Assembly (NCBI RefSeq): GCF_963975215.1
Contig: NZ_CAXBFW010000017.1
Location: 21,777-61,776, forward strand
Source of the DNA: an uncultured Gilvimarinus sp.
GTDB taxonomy: Bacteria; Pseudomonadota; Gammaproteobacteria; Pseudomonadales; Cellvibrionaceae
Direction: 5' to 3'
DNA: 40,000 nucleotides
Below are positions 5,063 to 24,553 of this stretch, in pieces. How positions within the stretch are numbered: position 1 is the first letter of the stretch; each line of letters begins with the position of its first letter. Below the pieces are notes generated by a model. That model did no database searches, was not told the DNA's origin, and saw only the letters and a list, made by a program, of their open reading frames with translations. Made by a program: the position numbers and the translations under genes.

Positions 5063-6889
5063 ATGAACAAATTACTGCGTTATCTTATGATGGCCGTCAT
5101 GGTTCTTGGTGTTACCGCGTGCGGTAGCGATGATGACGACGACTACAACCCACCGGAAGAAGTTAACACGATCGTTGATGTCGCCGAACAAAACGGCAAC
5201 TTTACAACATTAATAGCCGCGCTTGAGGCCACCGGCCTGGATGCAACCCTCGATGATGAAAGTGCCACCTTTACCGTGTTCGCACCCACCGACGACGCCT
5301 TTGCACTACTAGGGCAGGATAGCATCGACAACCTGCTGGCCGACACAGACACTCTGTCTGATATTTTGTTGTACCACGTCGTAGCCGATACCGAGATCGA
5401 CTCGGGCGCAGCCATTGCGGCGGCCGGTACCACATTAACCATGGCCAACGGCATGGATACCGGGGTTTCTCTGCAAGGCGAGACTCTGCGGTTAAATCTG
5501 GTTAAGGTCACCAGCACCGACATTGAAGCCAGCAACGGGGTTATCCATGTACTGGATGCCGTGTTAATGCCGCCGGCCGAGCGCGGCACGCCCGACATGA
5601 ATATTGTCGAAACCGCCGTTTCAGCCGGCAACTTTACAACGCTGGTAAGCGCGCTACAAACGGCTGGCCTGGACACAACCTTAGCGGATGAAAACGCCAC
5701 CTTTACCGTGTTTGCACCAACCGATGCGGCCTTTGCCATGGTTGGCGAAGAAAACATCAACGCCCTGCTTAACGATCCAGAGGCGTTAAACGCCGTGTTG
5801 TTGCAACATGTGATTGGCGATGCCGAAATTAATTCGGTGCAAGCATTTGCCGCCAGCGGTACCTCATTAACCACGGCGGCCGGCACGCAAATTGACGCTA
5901 ACATCGTCGATGATCACTTCACGATTGGCGGCGCCACCGTCGAAACCTTCGACATCTATACCAGCAACGGCATTATCCACGTCATCGACGCCGTAATCGT
6001 AGGTGACCTTGAACTTCCGGCGCCACCAATGTCACTGGTCGACGTCGCCCGTGAAGCCGGCAACTTTACCACGCTGGTAGCCGCCCTTGAGGCCACCGGT
6101 TTGGATATGACACTGGCCGATATGGACAGTGACTACACCGTGTTTGCCCCCACCGATGAAGCCTTTGCCAAATTGGGCCAAGACACCATCGATAACTTGC
6201 TGATGGATACCGAGGCACTGAGCAACATTTTGCTTTATCACGTAGTAGGCGGCCCCGGCATTATGGCTGCCGACGCTATTACGAAAGCGCAATCTGATAT
6301 GCCAATGCTGGAAATGGCTAATGGCAACAACACCGGTTTGTCATACGCCAACGAAGCGCTGTACGTAAACACCTCAATGGTAACCACGGCCAATGTCATG
6401 GCCGAAAACGGCATTATCCACGCGCTTGATCAGGTATTAATGCCACCGGCCGAGATGGGCAGCCCCACCAGCAACATCGTCGAAACCGCCGTTGATGCCG
6501 GCAACTTCACCACTTTGGTGACGGCACTGCAGGCCGCCGGCCTCGATAGCGTGCTGGCCGATGAGTCGGAAACCTTTACGGTGTTTGCCCCAACCGATGA
6601 CGCGTTTGCCAAGATTGATTCGGCAACACTGGATGCTCTGATCGCGGATGTACCGGCATTAACCGACGTGCTGTTGCAACACGTTATTCAGGGGGCAGCG
6701 GTTAACTCGGTAAGCGCCTTCACCCTCAACGGCACTAACGTTGACACCGCCTCGGGCGAAGACGTCAGCATCGACATTGTCGACGGACAACTGCAAGTGC
6801 AAGGCTCGGTGGTTACCATGTACGACATTTACACCACTAACGGCGTCATTCATGTGATTGATACTGTTATCACCGAAACCCTGGACTGA
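5063..6889 (+). CDS. Fasciclin (FAS1) domain lipoprotein with four tandem FAS1 domains
   Basis: Lipobox LGVTAC. The module NIVETAV..GNFTTLV.AL.AAGLD..L...TFTVFAPTD.AFA...NGVIHVID occurs four times. Confidence 0.85.
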   Translation: MNKLLRYLMMAVMVLGVTACGSDDDDDYNPPEEVNTIVDVAEQNGNFTTLIAALEATGLDATLDDESATFTVFAPTDDAFALLGQDSIDNLLADTDTLSDILLYHVVADTEIDSGAAIAAAGTTLTMANGMDTGVSLQGETLRLNLVKVTSTDIEASNGVIHVLDAVLMPPAERGTPDMNIVETAVSAGNFTTLVSALQTAGLDTTLADENATFTVFAPTDAAFAMVGEENINALLNDPEALNAVLLQHVIGDAEINSVQAFAASGTSLTTAAGTQIDANIVDDHFTIGGATVETFDIYTSNGIIHVIDAVIVGDLELPAPPMSLVDVAREAGNFTTLVAALEATGLDMTLADMDSDYTVFAPTDEAFAKLGQDTIDNLLMDTEALSNILLYHVVGGPGIMAADAITKAQSDMPMLEMANGNNTGLSYANEALYVNTSMVTTANVMAENGIIHALDQVLMPPAEMGSPTSNIVETAVDAGNFTTLVTALQAAGLDSVLADESETFTVFAPTDDAFAKIDSATLDALIADVPALTDVLLQHVIQGAAVNSVSAFTLNGTNVDTASGEDVSIDIVDGQLQVQGSVVTMYDIYTTNGVIHVIDTVITETLD

Positions 6890-14757: not shown

Positions 14758-14997
14758 ATGTCTAAAAACACGAGTATGACCCTTGGTAACCACTTTGATG
14801 GTTTTATAGCGCAGCAAATTGCAGATGGTCGTTATGCCTCTGCGAGCGAGGTTATACGCGCAGGCCTTAGAATGCTCGAAGTAAATGAGCAAAAGCTTAT
14901 GACGCTGCGTCGAATGCTTGAAGATGGTGAGAATAGCGGTGTTGCTCAATACAGCTACGATAGCTTTATGCAAGAGCTTGATGATGAGCTTGGCTAA
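14758..14997 (+). CDS. parD: Type II antitoxin ParD (RHH)
   Basis: MSKNTSMTLGNHFDGFIAQQIADGRYASASEVIRAGLRMLE closely resembles Vibrio superintegron ParD. Its stop overlaps the parE start (TAATG). Confidence 0.9.
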   Translation: MSKNTSMTLGNHFDGFIAQQIADGRYASASEVIRAGLRMLEVNEQKLMTLRRMLEDGENSGVAQYSYDSFMQELDDELG

Positions 14998-15299
14998 TGG
15001 GAACATTCCAGCTCTCGATCCAAGCCAAAAATGACCTAAAGACCATTGCCGTCTATACCCAACATAAATGGGGGAAAGCTCAAAGACGAATTTATCTTCG
15101 GCAATTTGATGACGCTTTCCATTCAATTGCTGAAACTCCGGCCATAGGCATAACCTGTGACTTTGTAAGGCCTGGGTACAGGAAGTTTCCTGTTACGAGC
15201 CATATAGTATTTTATCGGAAAGTTTCAGACACCCATATAGAAATAGTCCGAATACTTCACAAAAGAATGGATGCTAAGCCGAGTCTTCTAAAGCCATAA
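14997..15299 (+). CDS. parE: Type II toxin ParE (RelE/ParE superfamily)
   Basis: ...IAVYTQHKWGKAQRRIYLRQFDDAF...GYRKFPVTSHIVFYRK...IEIVRILHKRMD is a typical ParE. Its TAA stop lies within the CCATAAC box of the next attC. Confidence 0.9.
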   Translation: MGTFQLSIQAKNDLKTIAVYTQHKWGKAQRRIYLRQFDDAFHSIAETPAIGITCDFVRPGYRKFPVTSHIVFYRKVSDTHIEIVRILHKRMDAKPSLLKP

Positions 15300-15329
15300 C
15301 GCTGCCAACACGCGCAGCTTTGTAGTGAA
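15296..15329 (-). repeat. attC half-site (R' arm only)
   Basis: ATAACGCTGCCAACACGCGCAGCTTTGTAGTGA is homologous to the left arm of the IS-disrupted attC (19369-19401). No matching right arm follows. Confidence 0.6.
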
Positions 15330-15344
15330 AATAGCAATATAATA

Positions 15345-15444
15345 TTGGGGACACCCACAAACTTGACAATGCCACACCTCTAAACCAATGACAATATTGG
15401 GGACACCCACAAACTTGACATTGGGGACACCCACAAACTTGACA
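15345..15444 (+). repeat. Three direct copies of the 24-nt motif TTGGGGACACCCACAAACTTGACA
   Basis: Copies lie at 15345-15368, 15397-15420 and 15421-15444. A second 20-nt motif, ATGCCACACCTCTAAACCAA, follows copies 1 and 3 (15369-15388, 15445-15464). Confidence 0.9.
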
Positions 15445-15509
15445 ATGCCACACCTCTAAACCAAAGTAAATTCAAGGAGCTCACTGCACCGCACGTTCAA
15501 GGAGGAACC

Positions 15510-16529
15510 ATGACTCAACCCCGTAAGCGCCTTATCTCTCTTGACGACACCCCTTTTTATCACTGCGTTGCCCGCTGTGTTCGACGCGCATTTTTATGTG
15601 GCTCTGGCAAGGACTATGACTTCGAGCATCGCCGGGGCTGGATCGTCCGTCGACTTAAACAACTGGCGGCGGTCTTTACCATCGACGTGGCCGCCTATGC
15701 GGTCATGTCCAATCACTATCATTTGGTCTTGCGTGTTCACCGGGAGCAGGCCGAAGCCTTAACTCGGGATGAAGTGATTGAACGCTGGTGCCAACTCTTT
15801 AAAGGGCCTCCATTGGTGCAGCGGTTCCGAGCGGGCGAGACGTTATCGCCGCCGGAACTGGAAGTCATAGATGGCATTGTCGATGATTGGCGCCAGCGCC
15901 TAGCGGATATCAGTTGGTTCATGAGGTGCCTCAATGAACCCATTGCCCGCTGGGCCAACCGTGAGGACAACTGCACCGGGCGATTCTTTGAAGGACGCTT
16001 TAAAAGCCAGGCGTTGTTGGATGAGCGAGCCGTATTAAGCTGTATGGCCTATGTGGACTTAAACCCCATCCGGGCCAGTATGGCCGATACCCCCGAGAAC
16101 TCGGACTTTACCAGCATTCAGGAGCGTCTGGGTATCGAGCCCACCACCCTCGTCGAATCACCTGCCGAAACGGATCGAGAAAAACCCTTGGCTCTGGCCG
16201 AGCTGATGCCATTTGCTGGCCGTGAGCATCAAGACCGCCAACCCAACCACCTGCCCTTTGATCTAAGCGACTACCTGGAGCTGGTAGACTGGACGGGACG
16301 CGCCATTCGCAACGACAAGCGCGGGGCCATAAACGAAAACCTGCCGAAAATTCTGGATCGGCTTGGCCTTCCTACAAAAGACTGGCTGGACACATGCTGC
16401 CATATCGAGCAGCGTTTTGGCCGAGCCATCGGCCCGGTCGCTAAAGTCAGTGAATTGTGCGAAGCACTGAATCTACACTGGATACACGGCATCAGACACT
16501 GCCGAAGCTTCTACTCGCAAACCGGCTGA
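15510..16529 (+). CDS. HUH-type Y1 transposase (Y1_Tnp/RAYT-like, 339 aa)
   Basis: HUH motif in SNHYHLVLRV and a tyrosine motif in MAYVDLNPIRASMA. AGGAGG lies upstream of the ATG. Confidence 0.75.
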   Translation: MTQPRKRLISLDDTPFYHCVARCVRRAFLCGSGKDYDFEHRRGWIVRRLKQLAAVFTIDVAAYAVMSNHYHLVLRVHREQAEALTRDEVIERWCQLFKGPPLVQRFRAGETLSPPELEVIDGIVDDWRQRLADISWFMRCLNEPIARWANREDNCTGRFFEGRFKSQALLDERAVLSCMAYVDLNPIRASMADTPENSDFTSIQERLGIEPTTLVESPAETDREKPLALAELMPFAGREHQDRQPNHLPFDLSDYLELVDWTGRAIRNDKRGAINENLPKILDRLGLPTKDWLDTCCHIEQRFGRAIGPVAKVSELCEALNLHWIHGIRHCRSFYSQTG

Positions 16530-16622
16530 CGCCAATCCTATCAAAAGCCCCTTTGTGCTCCTGCGGGCAGGAACGCCTGTGTCCGAAATACGCCCTATGC
16601 GAGAAAAACTCGCCACTCGCCA

Positions 16623-17912
16623 TCATCGAATCGATATAGCCAAAAACCGTTGACGACTGGGATGAATAGAGAGGGGGATTTTTAAACTGTGGGTGTCTTT
16701 GTTTTTTTGATCTACTCCAAGTCGACGTAGTCTACGGTATCCGCTACGGCCCCATTGTTTCCAGATATAACAACGTAATTTCCGTCTGATCCATTTGTCG
16801 ATGTCCCGCAGCGGGCTCAGTACTTCAGCCACGCCGAAGTACGCTTTCCAACCAAGCAGGTATTTCTTTAAATCTGCGATGACACTCAACAACTGATGGC
16901 CTCTCGTTCGACGGCTCAACTCCCGGATTCGGCCCTTCAGCTTGATGAGCGCTTTATCACTCACCTTGATGCGGTTTCCTCGCCGGGGGCTGAAAGTAAA
17001 ACCCAGTAAGCTCCGTTTCCATGGGCGGTCTACAGCGCTCTTCTCGTCGTTCACCTTGAGCCGAAGACGGTATTCGATAAAACGTTGTACACTGCGTTTA
17101 ATACGCTCCGCCGCTCGCTCACTGCCCGCAAATATCTGACAGTCATCCGCGTACCGACTGAAGCGATGACCTCGTCTTTCCAGCTCCCAATCCAGCTCAT
17201 CCAGAACAATATTGGCCAGCACCGGTGACAGCGGCCCTCCTTGCGGAACGCCCTCTCTGCTCTTGGTGACTTGTTGACCGTTTTGTACCGGACTCTTCAG
17301 ATAACGCCTGACCAGCTTCAGAATATCCGGATCTTGTATGCGCTGTCCGAGTCGATGCATCAACCGGTCGTGGTTAACGGTGTCGAAGAACGCCTGAAGA
17401 TCCAGATCCACGACCCAGCGCTTACCCTGCACGATGGTGCTCTGTGCGTGCCGAACGGCTTGGTGGGCGCTTCGGTGCGGTCTGAAGCCGTAACTGTTGG
17501 GGTGGAAGGTCGGCTCCCAGAGTCGACTGACGACTTGCGCAATTGCTTGTTGGATAAAACGATCAACGACCGTTGGAATGCCCAGCTTGCGCAATTTCCC
17601 GTCTGCCTTGGGAATTTCGACACGCCTGACCGCATTAGGCTGGTAACGGCCTTCGACCAGGCTTTCCTTGAGTTGTGGCCAGTGAACGTGAAGGTATCTC
17701 GACAACTGCTCTGTTGTCATACCATCTACACCCGCTGCGCCTTTATTACGTCTGACTTGTTTCAGAGCTCGTGCCAGATTATTCCTGTCGAGCACTTGCT
17801 CCATCAACGATGTTTCGATAATTGGTAATTGGATGGGATTTTCAATAACACAGGCTTCACCCACCGCCGATAGCGGTGCCCCTTGTCGAGGTTGGTCAGG
17901 TGCTATGTCCAT
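16623..17912 (-). CDS. Group II intron reverse transcriptase/maturase, C-terminally truncated (last ~30 codons read into foreign DNA)
   Basis: RT blocks include NKGAAGVDG, PQGGPLSPVLANI and RYADDCQIF (YADD). The maturase X region has LLGWKAYFG. Homology stops after ...RRLRRLGVD. No endonuclease domain is present. The true start may be MEQVLDRNNL at 17804. Confidence 0.85.
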   Translation of the reverse strand: MDIAPDQPRQGAPLSAVGEACVIENPIQLPIIETSLMEQVLDRNNLARALKQVRRNKGAAGVDGMTTEQLSRYLHVHWPQLKESLVEGRYQPNAVRRVEIPKADGKLRKLGIPTVVDRFIQQAIAQVVSRLWEPTFHPNSYGFRPHRSAHQAVRHAQSTIVQGKRWVVDLDLQAFFDTVNHDRLMHRLGQRIQDPDILKLVRRYLKSPVQNGQQVTKSREGVPQGGPLSPVLANIVLDELDWELERRGHRFSRYADDCQIFAGSERAAERIKRSVQRFIEYRLRLKVNDEKSAVDRPWKRSLLGFTFSPRRGNRIKVSDKALIKLKGRIRELSRRTRGHQLLSVIADLKKYLLGWKAYFGVAEVLSPLRDIDKWIRRKLRCYIWKQWGRSGYRRLRRLGVDQKNKDTHSLKIPLSIHPSRQRFLAISIR

Positions 17913-18326
17913 GTTCTTACAATCTATACATACCAGAAATGTTCAGGCCTTCAGTGCCGAGAAATACACCTACTATGCCCTCTGCTGACTTCTGCATCGC
18001 GATCACAGAGAATTGCTTTCCTGTCAGTTGTTCCTTCAACACAATGCAGACCTCCCAGGGTAAGACACTTAACTTTCCTCGCGTAGACGCCGGATTTATA
18101 AAACATAAGCCAGTTGCAGATGGAGGGCTTAGCAGTCACGTGCCCGCTGGCCCCACCTATGTCACACCTCATATCCGATTCTTGTTCATCGCCCCGCGAT
18201 TTCGCCTTGGGCTTCCTCCAGCCAGCTCATCACGAAACTAACCTTGCCCTTTGGCTAACCTTCGGCTCTGCGAATACCTGGTACGAGGACTTTCACCTCG
18301 CGAGTTAAGTGCCATGCCTGGCACAC
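16710..18326 (-). mobile_element. Group II intron (compact, class C-like), 3'-truncated
   Basis: The minus strand starts GTGTGCCAGG... directly after attC sequence ...GCGGCGT. About 410 nt of structured 5' RNA precedes an RT/maturase ORF. I found no domain V/VI-like sequence downstream. Confidence 0.8.
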
Positions 18327-18400
18327 ACGCCGCAAGCAAAGGCGCGCGTTAGCGCGTCCAGTGGAGCGAAGCGGAACGATTTTGCCTTGCCTTGTTATGG
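18327..18400 (-). repeat. attC site (R' end interrupted by the intron)
   Basis: Identical to 24088-24161, except that the terminal CTA of CTAACGCC is replaced by the intron 5' end. Confidence 0.85.
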
Positions 18401-18402
18401 CT

Positions 18403-18792
18403 TTACACATGACGCCCTTCATGATCCCAAAGAATAAAGGTTTGATTTTCTGTGGATGACATTGATTTTATGAGTCGCTCATTATTAAAAGTTGGAATAT
18501 CCTGAAGGCGCTGCAGTAATTCACCGGCTCCAGTGGCCTCACTGGGATAAGTTATAACGCCGTCTTTAGTTGCCAAATGCCACCACACATCTTCAACAAA
18601 TGGACCTTCATCAGTTGTTTCGACTGCAACGCCAATAAGTCCATTCCACGCAATAGACTGAGGCTCCTTTTCTGGCCAATGCACCCACGCATTATTTTCG
18701 TCAAACCACACCTTTACAGAGGCATATGGGCTTTTTGCATCTTGCTGTTCGTTTTTTTTATTACTGAAGAGCGAAGATATCCATTTAAACAT
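18403..18792 (-). CDS. Cassette ORF: hypothetical protein (copy A of the duplicated cassette)
   Basis: The preferred start is MFKWISSLF (ATG at 18792, AAGGAA 7 nt upstream). An in-frame ATG within the attC box lies at 18813. The protein is identical to 24164-24553. Confidence 0.6.
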   Translation of the reverse strand: MFKWISSLFSNKKNEQQDAKSPYASVKVWFDENNAWVHWPEKEPQSIAWNGLIGVAVETTDEGPFVEDVWWHLATKDGVITYPSEATGAGELLQRLQDIPTFNNERLIKSMSSTENQTFILWDHEGRHV

Positions 18793-19336: not shown

Positions 19337-19368
19337 TCTTCTGGTTTGACTCTGAATCACGTGGAAAC

Positions 19369-19401
19369 ATAACGTCCGCAGCACGCGTGGCTTTGTAGTG
19401 A
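19369..19401 (-). repeat. attC site, left part (split by the IS)
   Basis: ATAACGTCCGCAGCACGCGTGGCTTTGTAGTGA pairs with the right part at 20686-20734 once the IS is removed. Confidence 0.75.
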
Positions 19402-19426
19402 TGAACTTGCACCACTTTCACGGACA

Positions 19427-20140
19427 CTATGACGCCACCCGTTGATAGGCTTTTGGCGATACGTACCCCAAAGAAGAGTGCAGGCGTTCCTCGTTGTAAA
19501 ACTCCACATAGTCAATGACTCTGGCCGCACACTCCACGTAGGAACTGAATTTCATCTGGTGTACCAGTTCGTTTTTTAATGTTCCGAAGAACGACTCGAC
19601 GAACGCATTGTCGGTTGGCGTACCCGCTCGGCTCATACTGCTGACCAGGTCAGATTTTCTGAGTGTGTTTTGGTAGATGTCAGAGCGGTATTCCGACCCT
19701 TGATCACTGTGGAACAAGCAGCCCGCTTCATTCTCCTGCAGCGCCAGAGACATTTCAAGCGCGCCTTTGATCAGGTCGGCATCATGGGCCCGAGAAAAGC
19801 CCCAGCCGATGACCTCTCGATTGAACAGATCCAAAACGGCCGCCATGTAGATTGGGCCTTGCGCCGTTTTCAGATAGGTCATATCGCCTGCCCACTGCTG
19901 ACCCGCTGCGGTTGCTTTGGGCGAATCCGCAAGCAGATTATCAGCGACCTCAGCGTAACCGCCGCTACGCCTTCCCGGCCTGGAAGCGTGATACGTAGAT
20001 TGAATGCCGTTTGCCTTCATCAGACGGTTCACTCGGCGCTTGCTGCAACTAACGTTCTGATTTCTCAAGGCTTTATGAACGCGAGGGGCTCCGTAGTTAC
20101 GCTTATGACCGACATGAACGACTTTAATGGCTTCAAGCAA
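19427..20140 (-). CDS. IS3-family transposase OrfB (DDE integrase core), normally fused to OrfA by a -1 frameshift
   Basis: rve-type sequence ...WAGDMTYLKT...FHSDQGSEY...PTDNAFVESFFGTLKNE... The reading frame continues upstream to the slippery site at 20308-20314. Confidence 0.9.
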   Translation of the reverse strand: MLEAIKVVHVGHKRNYGAPRVHKALRNQNVSCSKRRVNRLMKANGIQSTYHASRPGRRSGGYAEVADNLLADSPKATAAGQQWAGDMTYLKTAQGPIYMAAVLDLFNREVIGWGFSRAHDADLIKGALEMSLALQENEAGCLFHSDQGSEYRSDIYQNTLRKSDLVSSMSRAGTPTDNAFVESFFGTLKNELVHQMKFSSYVECAARVIDYVEFYNEERLHSSLGYVSPKAYQRVAS

Positions 20141-24084: not shown

Positions 24085-24161
24085 CTAACGCCGCAAGCAA
24101 AGGCGCGCGTTAGCGCGTCCAGTGGAGCGAAGCGGAACGATTTTGCCTTGCCTTGTTATGG
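24085..24161 (-). repeat. attC site
   Basis: The + strand reads CTAACGCCGCAAGCAAAGGCGCGCGTTAGCGCGTCCAGTGGAGCGAAGCGGAACGATTTTGCCTTGCCTTGTTATGG. Confidence 0.9.
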
Positions 24162-24163
24162 CT

Positions 24164-24553
24164 TTACACATGACGCCCTTCATGATCCCAAAGAATAAAG
24201 GTTTGATTTTCTGTGGATGACATTGATTTTATGAGTCGCTCATTATTAAAAGTTGGAATATCCTGAAGGCGCTGCAGTAATTCACCGGCTCCAGTGGCCT
24301 CACTGGGATAAGTTATAACGCCGTCTTTAGTTGCCAAATGCCACCACACATCTTCAACAAATGGACCTTCATCAGTTGTTTCGACTGCAACGCCAATAAG
24401 TCCATTCCACGCAATAGACTGAGGCTCCTTTTCTGGCCAATGCACCCACGCATTATTTTCGTCAAACCACACCTTTACAGAGGCATATGGGCTTTTTGCA
24501 TCTTGCTGTTCGTTTTTTTTATTACTGAAGAGCGAAGATATCCATTTAAACAT
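24164..24553 (-). CDS. Cassette ORF: hypothetical protein (copy B of the duplicated cassette)
   Basis: The protein is identical to 18403-18792, with the same RBS context. Confidence 0.6.
   Translation of the reverse strand: MFKWISSLFSNKKNEQQDAKSPYASVKVWFDENNAWVHWPEKEPQSIAWNGLIGVAVETTDEGPFVEDVWWHLATKDGVITYPSEATGAGELLQRLQDIPTFNNERLIKSMSSTENQTFILWDHEGRHV

What the first reader, a model, noticed from the sequence alone, without database searches (positions are those of the whole stretch)
15296..16709. HUH/Y1 transposase element with three 24-nt repeats, wedged between an attC half-site and a truncated intron
The 339-aa ORF has an HUH motif (NHYHLVL) and a YxxxNPxRA tyrosine motif. It is about twice the size of classical IS200 TnpA or RAYT proteins. 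Upstream lie three copies of TTGGGGACACCCACAAACTTGACA, each able to form a small bulged hairpin (TTGGGG-aca-CCCACAA). They are interleaved with two copies of ATGCCACACCTCTAAACCAA. The 10-nt core GACACCCACA recurs inverted at 16688-16697, exactly where the group II RT frame stops looking like an RT. Between the ORF and that point are small hairpins such as GCGAGaaaaaCTCGC. This looks like a REPtron/IS200-like unit, but with an unusual repeat architecture. One flank is intron DNA and the other is the middle of an attC, so insertion was followed by a deletion.
Basis: partly seen in the sequence, partly recalled or inferred. Interest (0 to 1): 0.65.

Follow-up and report, generated by a model that had tools for sequence, protein, structure and literature searches.

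The report
TIR-flanked HUH tyrosine-transposase insertion element
This is a roughly 1.37-kb mobile element that encodes a long RAYT-like single-strand-DNA transposase between conserved inverted end repeats; the class is already described but untested at the bench, and the three 24-nt repeats are extra tandem copies of its left end.

Summary
The intact 339-aa ORF (15510-16529) has HUH (N68-H69-Y70-H71) and Y181-x3-NP motifs. Three exact 24-mers and two 20-mers lie upstream, and the 10-mer GACACCCACA recurs inverted at 16688-16697 (4 hits in the window, 0.07 expected).

The protein fits TnpA-Y1 subclass 2.3 of Quentin et al. 2018: about 325 aa, NHYH, YVDLNP, HuH-Y spacing about 110. Its predicted fold is closest to E. 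coli TnpA-REP (4ER8).

The inverted core is not chance. In 51 distinct homologous copies (42-100% aa identity, several genera), GGACACCCA lies upstream in 34 and TGGGTGTCC downstream in 24; controls give 2-3. Similarity between copies stops at these motifs, and the two ends co-vary. The unit is therefore a "TIRtron" (Di Nocera 2013; the left end GGGGACAC fits their GGGGWSAS), not a REPtron or IS200.

- The proposed hairpins are no better than shuffled sequence and are not conserved.
- Tandem repetition of ends is the norm in this family.
- The family is patchy and multicopy in relatives. This genome has one intact copy, two decayed fragments and two solo left ends.
- The flanks are the 3' half of an attC and a 3'-truncated group II intron, so insertion plus an adjacent deletion is plausible.

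It is a new member of a known kind. This scan has already reported TIRtrons on other DNA.

The parts
15293..15328 (-). Context: the 3' (L'-R') half of an attC site. Read on the minus strand it is ..GCTGCGCGTGTTGGCAGCGTTA|TGGC, and it abuts the parDE cassette (parD 14758-14997, parE 14997-15299).
   Evidence: 79% similar to 19368-19401 (D10). Other attC sites of the array read TAAC...GTTATGGC on the + strand. The 5' half of this attC is missing.
15329..15344 (.). A/T-rich 16 nt (AAATAGCAATATAATA) of uncertain origin. It is either the centre of the attC or the A/T-rich outer segment of the left end.
   Evidence: In relatives an A/T-rich 8-10 nt stretch precedes GGACACCCA, mirrored by a T-rich tail after the right-end core.
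15345..15396 (+). Left-end unit 1 (52 nt): 24-mer, then 20-mer, then TGACAATA. This is a reiterated, outer copy of the left end.
   Evidence: D7: 94% identical to 15420-15471. It starts at the same outer boundary as units 2 and 3.
15397..15420 (+). Left-end unit 2: the 24-mer only, ending after CTTGACA.
   Evidence: The two solo left ends in this genome (C5:14980, C35:19140) also end after CTTGACA.
15421..15509 (+). Left-end unit 3, the proximal left end continuous with the gene. It holds the core GGACACCCACA, a -35-like TTGACA, the 20-mer, a leader and the Shine-Dalgarno AAGGAGG.
   Evidence: This block is conserved as a single copy upstream of 9 homologous genes in other genomes and of the 2 decayed fragments in this genome.
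15510..16529 (+). tnpA: a 339-aa HUH/Y1 nuclease of TnpA-Y1 subclass 2.3 (TIRYT-like). Key residues are N68-H69-Y70-H71, Y181-VDLNP and T201-S202.
   Evidence: paper.
16530..16687 (+). 3' subterminal non-coding region. It contains a clade-conserved block CTGTGTCCGAAATACG (16577-16592) that resembles the right-end core.
   Evidence: Alignment of downstream flanks. There is no significant secondary structure.
16688..16709 (+). Right end: the inverted core TGTGGGTGTC followed by a T-rich tail TTTGTTTTTTTG.
   Evidence: Conserved 165-265 nt after the stop codon in relatives. Similarity between copies ends about 10 nt past the core.
16710..18326 (-). Context: a 3'-truncated group II intron. Its 5' end GUGUGCC is at 18326, inside the attC at 18322-18400. 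The last roughly 40 codons of the RT/maturase ORF and domains V and VI are missing.
   Evidence: Pfam RVT_1 and GIIM, and TIGR04416. Rfam D1-D4 hits at 17946-18239 and no D5/D6 hit even at E <= 1. An intact copy of the same attC is at 24086-24166. The intron is single-copy in the genome.

Best explanation
Window ~15345-16709 is an insertion-sequence-like 'TIRtron'. It has one gene for a long (339-aa) RAYT-related HUH/Y1 single-strand-DNA nuclease-ligase of TnpA-Y1 subclass 2.3. The gene lies between terminal inverted repeats with the family-conserved core GGACACCCAYA / TRTGGGTGTCC, each with an A/T-rich outer segment.

The three 24-mers are three tandem copies of the left end. All three start at the same outer boundary and end after 52 nt, after 24 nt, or run on into the gene. 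The 20-mers are the next stretch of the left end and leader.

Shown here:
- the enzyme class;
- the conservation of the ends, and that similarity between copies stops at them;
- that the two ends co-vary;
- that the family is mobile within the lineage.

Inferred, not tested:
- The enzyme nicks and rejoins single-stranded DNA at or near the repeats through Tyr181 and the HUH metal site.
- It recognises the ends as a linear sequence, or as a stem formed by pairing of the left and right ends in single-stranded DNA, rather than as local hairpins.
- The tandem end units are by-products of repeated cleavage and rejoining, or of re-insertion at the ends.
- The element inserted into the integron array (into the attC or the intron), and an adjacent deletion then removed the other attC half, any cassettes in between, and the intron's 3' end.
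For: Enzyme:
- The HUH and Y-x3-NP residues are invariant in 40 homologues.
- The AlphaFold model has pLDDT 83.8 and pTM 0.87.
- Its best PDB match is 4ER8 TnpA-REP (E = 2.7e-4, probability 1.0, TM 0.68 on the target), followed by the ISDra2, IS608 and IS200 transposases.
- There is a partial hit to NCBIfam REP_Tyr_transpos (E = 5e-8).
- The subclass 2.3 signatures match: 339 aa against a median of 325, NHYH, YVDLNP, TS, and HuH-Y spacing of 112 against a median of 110.

Ends:
- In 51 distinct full-length copies, GGACACCCA (up to 1 mismatch) lies within 260 nt upstream in 34, and its complement within 480 nt downstream in 24. Both are present in 20. Reversed or wrong-orientation controls give 2-6.
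- Pairs of copies within one genome are alike only between these motifs: G020 L020/L046, G018, G035 and G022.
- Variants of the left and right ends co-vary, for example GGACACACA/TGTGTGTCC, AGACACCCA/TGGGTGTCT and GGACATCCA/TGGATGTCC, along with longer lineage-specific extensions.
- The left end GGGGACAC fits the TIRYT consensus GGGGWSAS.

Mobility:
- The gene is present in 7 of 11 other genomes of the same genus.
- There are up to 34 matches per genome, many at contig ends or decayed.
- This genome has 1 intact copy, 2 pseudogene fragments and 2 solo left ends.

Tandem ends elsewhere.
Against: - No filled-site versus empty-site pair was found, so the exact termini, the absence of a target duplication and movement of the whole unit are not shown directly.
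- Pfam Y1_Tnp and the NCBIfam RAYT model are both below their curated cut-offs. A profile search of PDB sequences found nothing.
- One clade (G019) has left-end arrays but no inverted right end, and there a 6.6-kb segment starting at the left end is duplicated. Two-ended transposition may therefore not be the only mode.
- The window's right-end core starts AGACACC where the left end has GGACACC, so the inverted repeat is exact for only 10 nt.
- No sigma-70 promoter passed the scan on the + strand.
- There is no biochemical evidence for any member of this subclass.
Confidence: 0.82

Rival explanations
1. It is a domesticated, immobile RAYT (REPtron). A host-serving nuclease would maintain a genome-wide population of REP/REPIN repeats, and the 24-mers would be local members of that population.
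For: JGI annotates some homologues as 'REP element-mobilizing transposase RayT'. The best structural match is TnpA-REP. The gene is flanked by inverted repeat arrays, as in REPtrons.
Against: The 19-mer core occurs only 5 times in the 3.9-Mb genome, and 3 of those are at this locus. The repeats do not form significant hairpins and lack GTAG. The gene itself is multicopy, patchy and often decayed in relatives. Quentin et al. found no REPs for subclass 2.3 and the highest copy number of class 2.
Confidence: 0.05
2. The element uses only its left end, by one-ended or rolling-circle-like mobilisation as in IS91/ISCR. The left end would be the origin, the inverted right-end motif dispensable or only a terminator, and the tandem left-end units aborted initiations.
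For: In G019 the copies have left-end arrays but no right-end motif, and a 6.6-kb duplication carrying two cargo genes begins exactly at the left end. All reiterated left-end units share the outer boundary and differ in their inner breakpoint. Solo left ends exist.
Against: The right end is conserved, co-varies with the left end, and also forms arrays anchored at its outer edge. Pairs of copies in G020, G018 and G035 end at the right end. This is a Y1 enzyme, whereas IS91/ISCR transposases are Y2. The 6.6-kb repeat could be an ordinary segmental duplication.
Confidence: 0.1
3. The upstream repeats are only a duplicated promoter or operator region (TTGACA-containing iterons for autoregulation) and play no part in DNA cleavage. 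The downstream 10-mer would be coincidental.
For: Each 24-mer ends in TTGACA, and a TTGAC element follows the core in most relatives. In other clades the core lies just upstream of good -35/-10 pairs and SOS boxes.
Against: The inverted core downstream is found in 24 of 51 copies against 2-3 in controls, co-varies with the upstream core, and marks where similarity between copies ends. A regulatory role and an end role are not mutually exclusive.
Confidence: 0.03

Closest known systems
TnpA-Y1 subclass 2.3 (Quentin, Siguier, Chandler & Fichant 2018, BMC Genomics 19:475, PMC6006769)
   Same: The length is 339 aa against a median of 325. It has NHYH, YVDLNP and the TS tail motif. The HuH-Y distance is 112 against a median of about 110. 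A helical insertion of about 55 aa lies between beta3 and alphaC, and there is a long subclass-specific C-terminal region. The family is multicopy and patchy in marine Gammaproteobacteria and has no REP hairpins.
   Different: The paper lists 'REP: no' and describes no ends. Here the genes are bounded by conserved inverted repeats, often in tandem arrays. The W of the 'WE' motif is F in this clade (3 of 40). The host appears to be a Gilvimarinus-like bacterium (closest named homologues), not a member of Chromatiales or Alteromonadales in the strict sense.
TIRtron / TIRYT (Di Nocera, De Gregorio & Rocco 2013, BMC Genomics 14:522, PMC3733652)
   Same: It is a RAYT-like tyrosine transposase gene flanked by terminal inverted repeats instead of REPs. 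The repeat carries GGGGWSAS (here GGGGACAC). The repeats can occur as dimers or clusters.
   Different: According to Quentin et al., the 26 published TIRYTs fall in subclasses 2.1, 2.2 and 2.5, and none is in 2.3. This protein is about 100 aa longer. Its C-terminal region matches no Pfam family, so no DnaA-C or HTH domain was detected, and it did not fold confidently on its own (pLDDT 48). The full-length model is confident (pTM 0.87).
E. coli TnpA-REP / RAYT with REPs (PDB 4ER8)
   Same: It is the best structural match for the catalytic core. It shares the HUH and Y-x3-NP chemistry, and its gene is also flanked by inverted repeats.
   Different: RAYTs are about 165 aa, single-copy and vertically inherited. 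They act on GTAG-tagged hairpins that are dispersed in hundreds of copies. None of that applies here.
IS200/IS605 (IS608, ISDra2)
   Same: It has the same Y1 HUH fold and, presumably, the same single-strand chemistry.
   Different: Those elements have a TnpA of about 150 aa with Y-x3-Q, subterminal hairpins on the same strand and no inverted repeats, and they often carry tnpB. Pfam Y1_Tnp is below threshold here.

Membership tests
HUH / Y1 (TnpA-Y1) nuclease superfamily | HUH metal-binding motif and a single catalytic Tyr on a C-terminal helix | tested here: met
   N68-H69-Y70-H71 and Y181-VDLNP. H69, Y181, N185 and P186 are invariant in 40 homologues.
HUH / Y1 (TnpA-Y1) nuclease superfamily | IS200-like alpha/beta fold | tested here: met
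   The model has pLDDT 83.8. The top Foldseek PDB hits are 4ER8, then the ISDra2, IS608 and IS200 transposases, with probability 0.96-1.0.
HUH / Y1 (TnpA-Y1) nuclease superfamily | Scores above the curated cut-off of Pfam PF01797 (Y1_Tnp) or NCBIfam NF047646 | tested here: not met
   PF01797 scores 13.6 bits against 23 (E = 0.077). NF047646 scores 33 bits against 80 and covers only aa 148-197. Four of the 120 listed homologues carry a precomputed PF01797 hit.
TnpA-Y1 subclass 2.3 (Quentin 2018) | Median length about 325 aa; motifs NHYH, WE, YVDLNP, TS; HuH-Y distance about 110 | tested here: met
   339 aa, with NHYH, YVDLNP and T201-S202, and H69-Y181 = 112. 'WE' reads FE in this clade but WE in 37 of 40 homologues.
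TnpA-Y1 subclass 2.3 (Quentin 2018) | A conserved insertion of about 55 aa between beta3 and alphaC, and a subclass-specific distal C-terminal domain | tested here: met
   The model has helices at 78-130 between strand 69-76 and helix 134-152. The C-terminal 236-339 is conserved in 17 relatives.
TnpA-Y1 subclass 2.3 (Quentin 2018) | Match to the authors' subclass HMM or placement in their tree | not testable with these tools
   Their profiles are not available here.
TIRtron / TIRYT (Di Nocera 2013) | A RAYT-like gene flanked by terminal inverted repeats that are not REP hairpins | tested here: met
   Folding is no better than shuffles.
TIRtron / TIRYT (Di Nocera 2013) | GGGGWSAS motif in the repeat, and repeats that may be clustered | tested here: met
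   The left end is GGGGACAC. The right end reads AAAGACAC, so it fits only partly. Clusters appear in the window and in many relatives.
REPtron / RAYT | Flanking GTAG-tagged palindromic REPs that are also dispersed at high copy number, with a single-copy gene | tested here: not met
   There is no GTAG hairpin. The 19-mer occurs 5 times in the genome. The gene is multicopy in relatives.
IS200/IS605 | A TnpA of about 150 aa with Y-x3-Q, subterminal hairpins at both ends on one strand, and often tnpB | tested here: not met
   The protein is 339 aa with Y-x3-N. There are no hairpins and no neighbouring tnpB-like ORF.

The most novel reading that the evidence does not exclude
Subclass 2.3 elements may transpose in a way not yet described for Y1 HUH enzymes. 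The ends would be recognised as linear, roughly 20-nt inverted repeats. One possibility is that the left and right ends pair into a stem when the ~1.3-kb element is single-stranded; another is that initiation is anchored at the left end. Repeated cleavage and rejoining would leave arrays of end units that all share the outer boundary. In many lineages the transposase would be switched on by DNA damage: a LexA-type CTGT-N8-ACAG box overlaps the promoter in 18 of 51 copies, though not in this window's clade.
Probability: 0.2. Interest if true: 0.55.

Novelty: new member of a known kind. Interest (0 to 1): 0.3.

Why it matters
For this window the result is mainly a clean annotation. An intact and possibly active mobile element has disrupted an attC site and a group II intron inside a chromosomal integron array.

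More broadly, the comparison supplies something the published classification of subclass 2.3 lacks: its ends. These are a conserved inverted core (GGACACCCAYA) with A/T-rich outer segments, usually reiterated in tandem. That links the subclass to the TIRYT/TIRtron elements and gives concrete substrates for a first biochemical test of a family with thousands of members (more than 8000 hits) and no experimental data.

Tried and rejected
- **Hairpin ends (REP or IS608-like).** I folded the 24-mer, the whole left-end array, the right end and the 3' region as DNA. None beat shuffles convincingly: z = -0.9, -2.0, +0.8 and +0.5. The array's -2.0 comes from pairing between repeat units. The stems are not conserved.
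- **Sequence search of the PDB with a 40-sequence profile.** No hit at E <= 1.
- **C-terminal 104 aa folded alone.** The aim was to look for an HTH or DnaA-C domain. The model had pLDDT 48 and was unusable, so no fold search was run on it.
- **Empty-site search.** I searched the whole loci of two same-genus copies (L009, L012) against 12 genomes of the genus. The flanks are strain-specific or rearranged, so there was no clean empty site.
- **Exact-protein look-up for other assemblies.** Nothing on record.
- **Sigma-70 promoter scan of the leader.** No + strand site passed.
- **Rfam search for intron domains V and VI near the element.** None found.
- **Carriage on plasmids.** Only 14 of 72,556 records, mostly chromids of marine Gammaproteobacteria, so this was uninformative.
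Full report
**What is in the sequence.** The region contains an intact 339-aa ORF at 15510-16529 (+), preceded by AAGGAGG. Upstream are three exact copies of TTGGGGACACCCACAAACTTGACA (15345, 15397, 15421) and two of ATGCCACACCTCTAAACCAA (15369, 15445). Together they form a 52-nt unit, a 24-nt unit and a third unit that runs on into the gene. The 10-mer GACACCCACA recurs inverted at 16688-16697. It occurs four times in the window against 0.07 expected. In the whole 3.9-Mb genome it occurs 16 times against about 7 expected, so on its own the inverted copy could not be called significant.

**The protein.** Pfam Y1_Tnp is below threshold (E = 0.077, 13.6 bits against 23). NCBIfam REP_Tyr_transpos matches only aa 148-197 (33 bits against 80). 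However, more than 8000 full-length homologues of about 340 aa exist. They are named 'transposase' or 'RayT', and the closest named ones are from Gilvimarinus at 75-80% identity. H69, Y181, N185 and P186 are invariant, and H71 is nearly so. An AlphaFold model built on 40 homologues is confident (pLDDT 83.8, pTM 0.87). Its best PDB match is E. coli TnpA-REP bound to a REP hairpin (4ER8; E = 2.7e-4, probability 1.0), followed by the ISDra2, IS608 and IS200 transposases.

The published classification of Quentin et al. 2018 describes exactly this protein type as TnpA-Y1 subclass 2.3. Its features are a median of 325 aa, NHYH, YVDLNP, a TS tail motif, an HuH-Y distance of about 110 (112 here), a 55-aa insertion between beta3 and alphaC, a subclass-specific C-terminal domain, the highest copy number of class 2, and 'REP: no'. 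The C-terminal 104 aa modelled alone gave only pLDDT 48. They matched no Pfam family.

**The repeats are the element's ends.** I collected homologous copies from 40 related genomes and further copies from multicopy genomes. Among Gilvimarinus-clade copies (61-80% aa identity), the upstream alignment becomes conserved exactly at GGACACCCACAAAcTTGACAAtGCCACA and stays so to the ATG. The downstream alignment is conserved up to tAAt.TGTGGGTGTCC plus about 10 T-rich nt, 155-190 nt after the stop, and then breaks off.

Across 51 distinct full-length copies (42-100% identity), GGACACCCA (up to 1 mismatch) lies within 260 nt upstream in 34. Its complement lies within 480 nt downstream in 24, and both are present in 20. 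Reversed-sequence controls give 2-3, and wrong-orientation controls give 2-6. Within single genomes, pairs of diverged copies are similar only between these motifs: G020 L020/L046 (93% over 1413-2676), and likewise in G018, G035 and G022. Variants of the left and right ends co-vary, for example GGACACACA with TGTGTGTCC, AGACACCCA with TGGGTGTCT, and GGACATCCA with TGGATGTCC. The match extends into lineage-specific flanks of up to about 20 nt, with an A/T-rich outer segment at both ends.

These are therefore genuine terminal inverted repeats. The left end GGGGACAC fits the GGGGWSAS motif that Di Nocera et al. 2013 reported for 'TIRtrons' (TIR-flanked RAYT-like genes, TIRYT), whose repeats they also found 'in dimers or clusters'. 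Quentin et al. placed the published TIRYTs in subclasses 2.1, 2.2 and 2.5, and found subclass 2.3 embedded within 2.1 in their tree.

**Hairpins.** The 24-mer's bulged stem is weak (-3 kcal/mol, z = -0.9). The right end has no predicted structure, the 3' region containing GCGAG..CTCGC has z = +0.5, and the equivalents in relatives have z of about 0. None of these stems is conserved. This agrees with the published absence of REP-like structures for this subclass.

**Tandem ends are the rule.** Reiterated left ends occur 2-7 times in L015, L041, L035, L036, L019, L028 and in G019 and G006 copies, and L050 has 10 core matches upstream. Reiterated right ends occur in L045 (5 core matches), L042 (4), L025 (3), and in L009, L012, L014, L020, L021, L053, L058 and L079. 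In every array the units share the outer boundary and differ at the inner breakpoint. Breakpoints recur just after GG of the core (L010, L038, L071) and after CTTG(ACA) (window unit 2, the two solo left ends C5:14980 and C35:19140, L069 and L038). I cannot say which process makes these arrays. Repeated HUH cleavage and rejoining, re-insertion at the ends followed by recombination, or template switching at a protein-bound end are all possible.

**Mobility.** The gene was found in 7 of the 11 other genomes of the genus that were searched and in 16 of 24 of the family. There were up to 34 matches per genome, many of them truncated, carrying stop codons or at contig ends. This genome has the intact copy and two decayed 5' fragments that keep the same leader as a single copy (C5:16103, 91% identity; C11:15213, 68%). 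It also has two solo left ends. I found no filled/empty site pair, so the exact termini and the absence of a target duplication remain inferred. The family is rare on plasmids (14 of 72,556 records, mostly chromids).

**Flanks.** The cassettes of this array are on the minus strand, so attC sites read TAAC...GTTATGGC on the + strand. Positions 15293-15328, read on the minus strand, are the 3' half of an attC ending GCAGCGTTA|TGGC, next to the inversely oriented parDE cassette. Its 5' half is missing.

On the other side, the group II intron (minus strand) begins with GUGUGCC at 18326, inside the attC at 18322-18400. An uninterrupted identical copy of that attC lies at 24086-24166. The intron's RT/maturase is complete by TIGR04416 up to aa 387, but its frame then runs into the element's right end. 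No domain V or VI is detectable, and the intron is single-copy. The two flanks were therefore never contiguous. Both element ends are intact, so I cannot tell which side was deleted.

**Mechanism.** The enzyme class, the ends and their co-variation are shown. The rest is inferred. I propose that Tyr181 and the HUH site nick and rejoin single-stranded DNA at the repeats. On any one strand the two ends are complementary, not identical. So either the enzyme acts on opposite strands at the two ends, or the ends anneal into a stem when the 1.3-kb element is single-stranded. The G019 clade lacks a right-end motif and has a 6.6-kb duplication that starts exactly at the left end. This keeps a one-ended mode open as a rival.

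**Verdict.** This scan has reported TIRtrons many times on other DNA, although no follow-up report on subclass 2.3 turned up.

Noticed in passing
Loci L014, L015, L021, L043, L045, L051-L055, L060-L062, L066 and others: 30-57 nt upstream of the ATG: 18 of 51 family copies carry a LexA/SOS-box-like CTGT-N8-(ACAG/CCAG/ACAT/ACAA) overlapping the predicted -10 of the transposase promoter. Nine of them are perfect CTGT-N8-ACAG. Control windows give 0 of 51, and about 0.3 would be expected by chance. The window's own clade (68-100% identity) lacks the box. A library search found no report of SOS-regulated RAYT or TIRYT genes.
   Followed up: partly
L067 278-6896 and L068 278-6734 (G019, a closed genome of another genus): Two copies of a 6.6-kb segment begin exactly at the element's left end. 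Each carries the HUH gene, a 532-aa autotransporter and a 1118-aa Ig/Calx-beta protein, and neither has an inverted right-end motif. This could be left-end-anchored cargo mobilisation or just a segmental duplication.
   Followed up: partly
L017 1204-1480 (G019): Between the left-end core and the ATG, a 14-nt unit GGACATTATTAATA is repeated about 7 times and a 7-nt unit CCTCCAA about 20 times. The leader is thus a microsatellite that would change promoter spacing.
   Followed up: no
window 19368-19427: A second attC 3' half (79% similar to 15295-15328) is cut at the same relative position by what looks like an IS3-family terminal repeat (TGAACTTGCACCAC...), followed by a truncated rve-type transposase ORF at 19427-20140 (-).
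   Followed up: partly
window 18327-18626 and 24088-24387: There is an exact 300-nt duplication comprising an attC and the start of a cassette. The copy at 18322-18400 carries the group II intron and the copy at 24086-24166 is intact, which gives the intron's insertion point GGCGT|TA on the minus strand.
   Followed up: partly
window 14758-15299: A parD/parE toxin-antitoxin cassette is oriented opposite to the other cassettes of the array.
   Followed up: no
window 5174-6617: A coding repeat with a 432-441-nt period occurs 3-4 times at 60-73% identity (..GNFTTL..AL.ATGLD..L, fasciclin-like by eye) (D1/D4).
   Followed up: no
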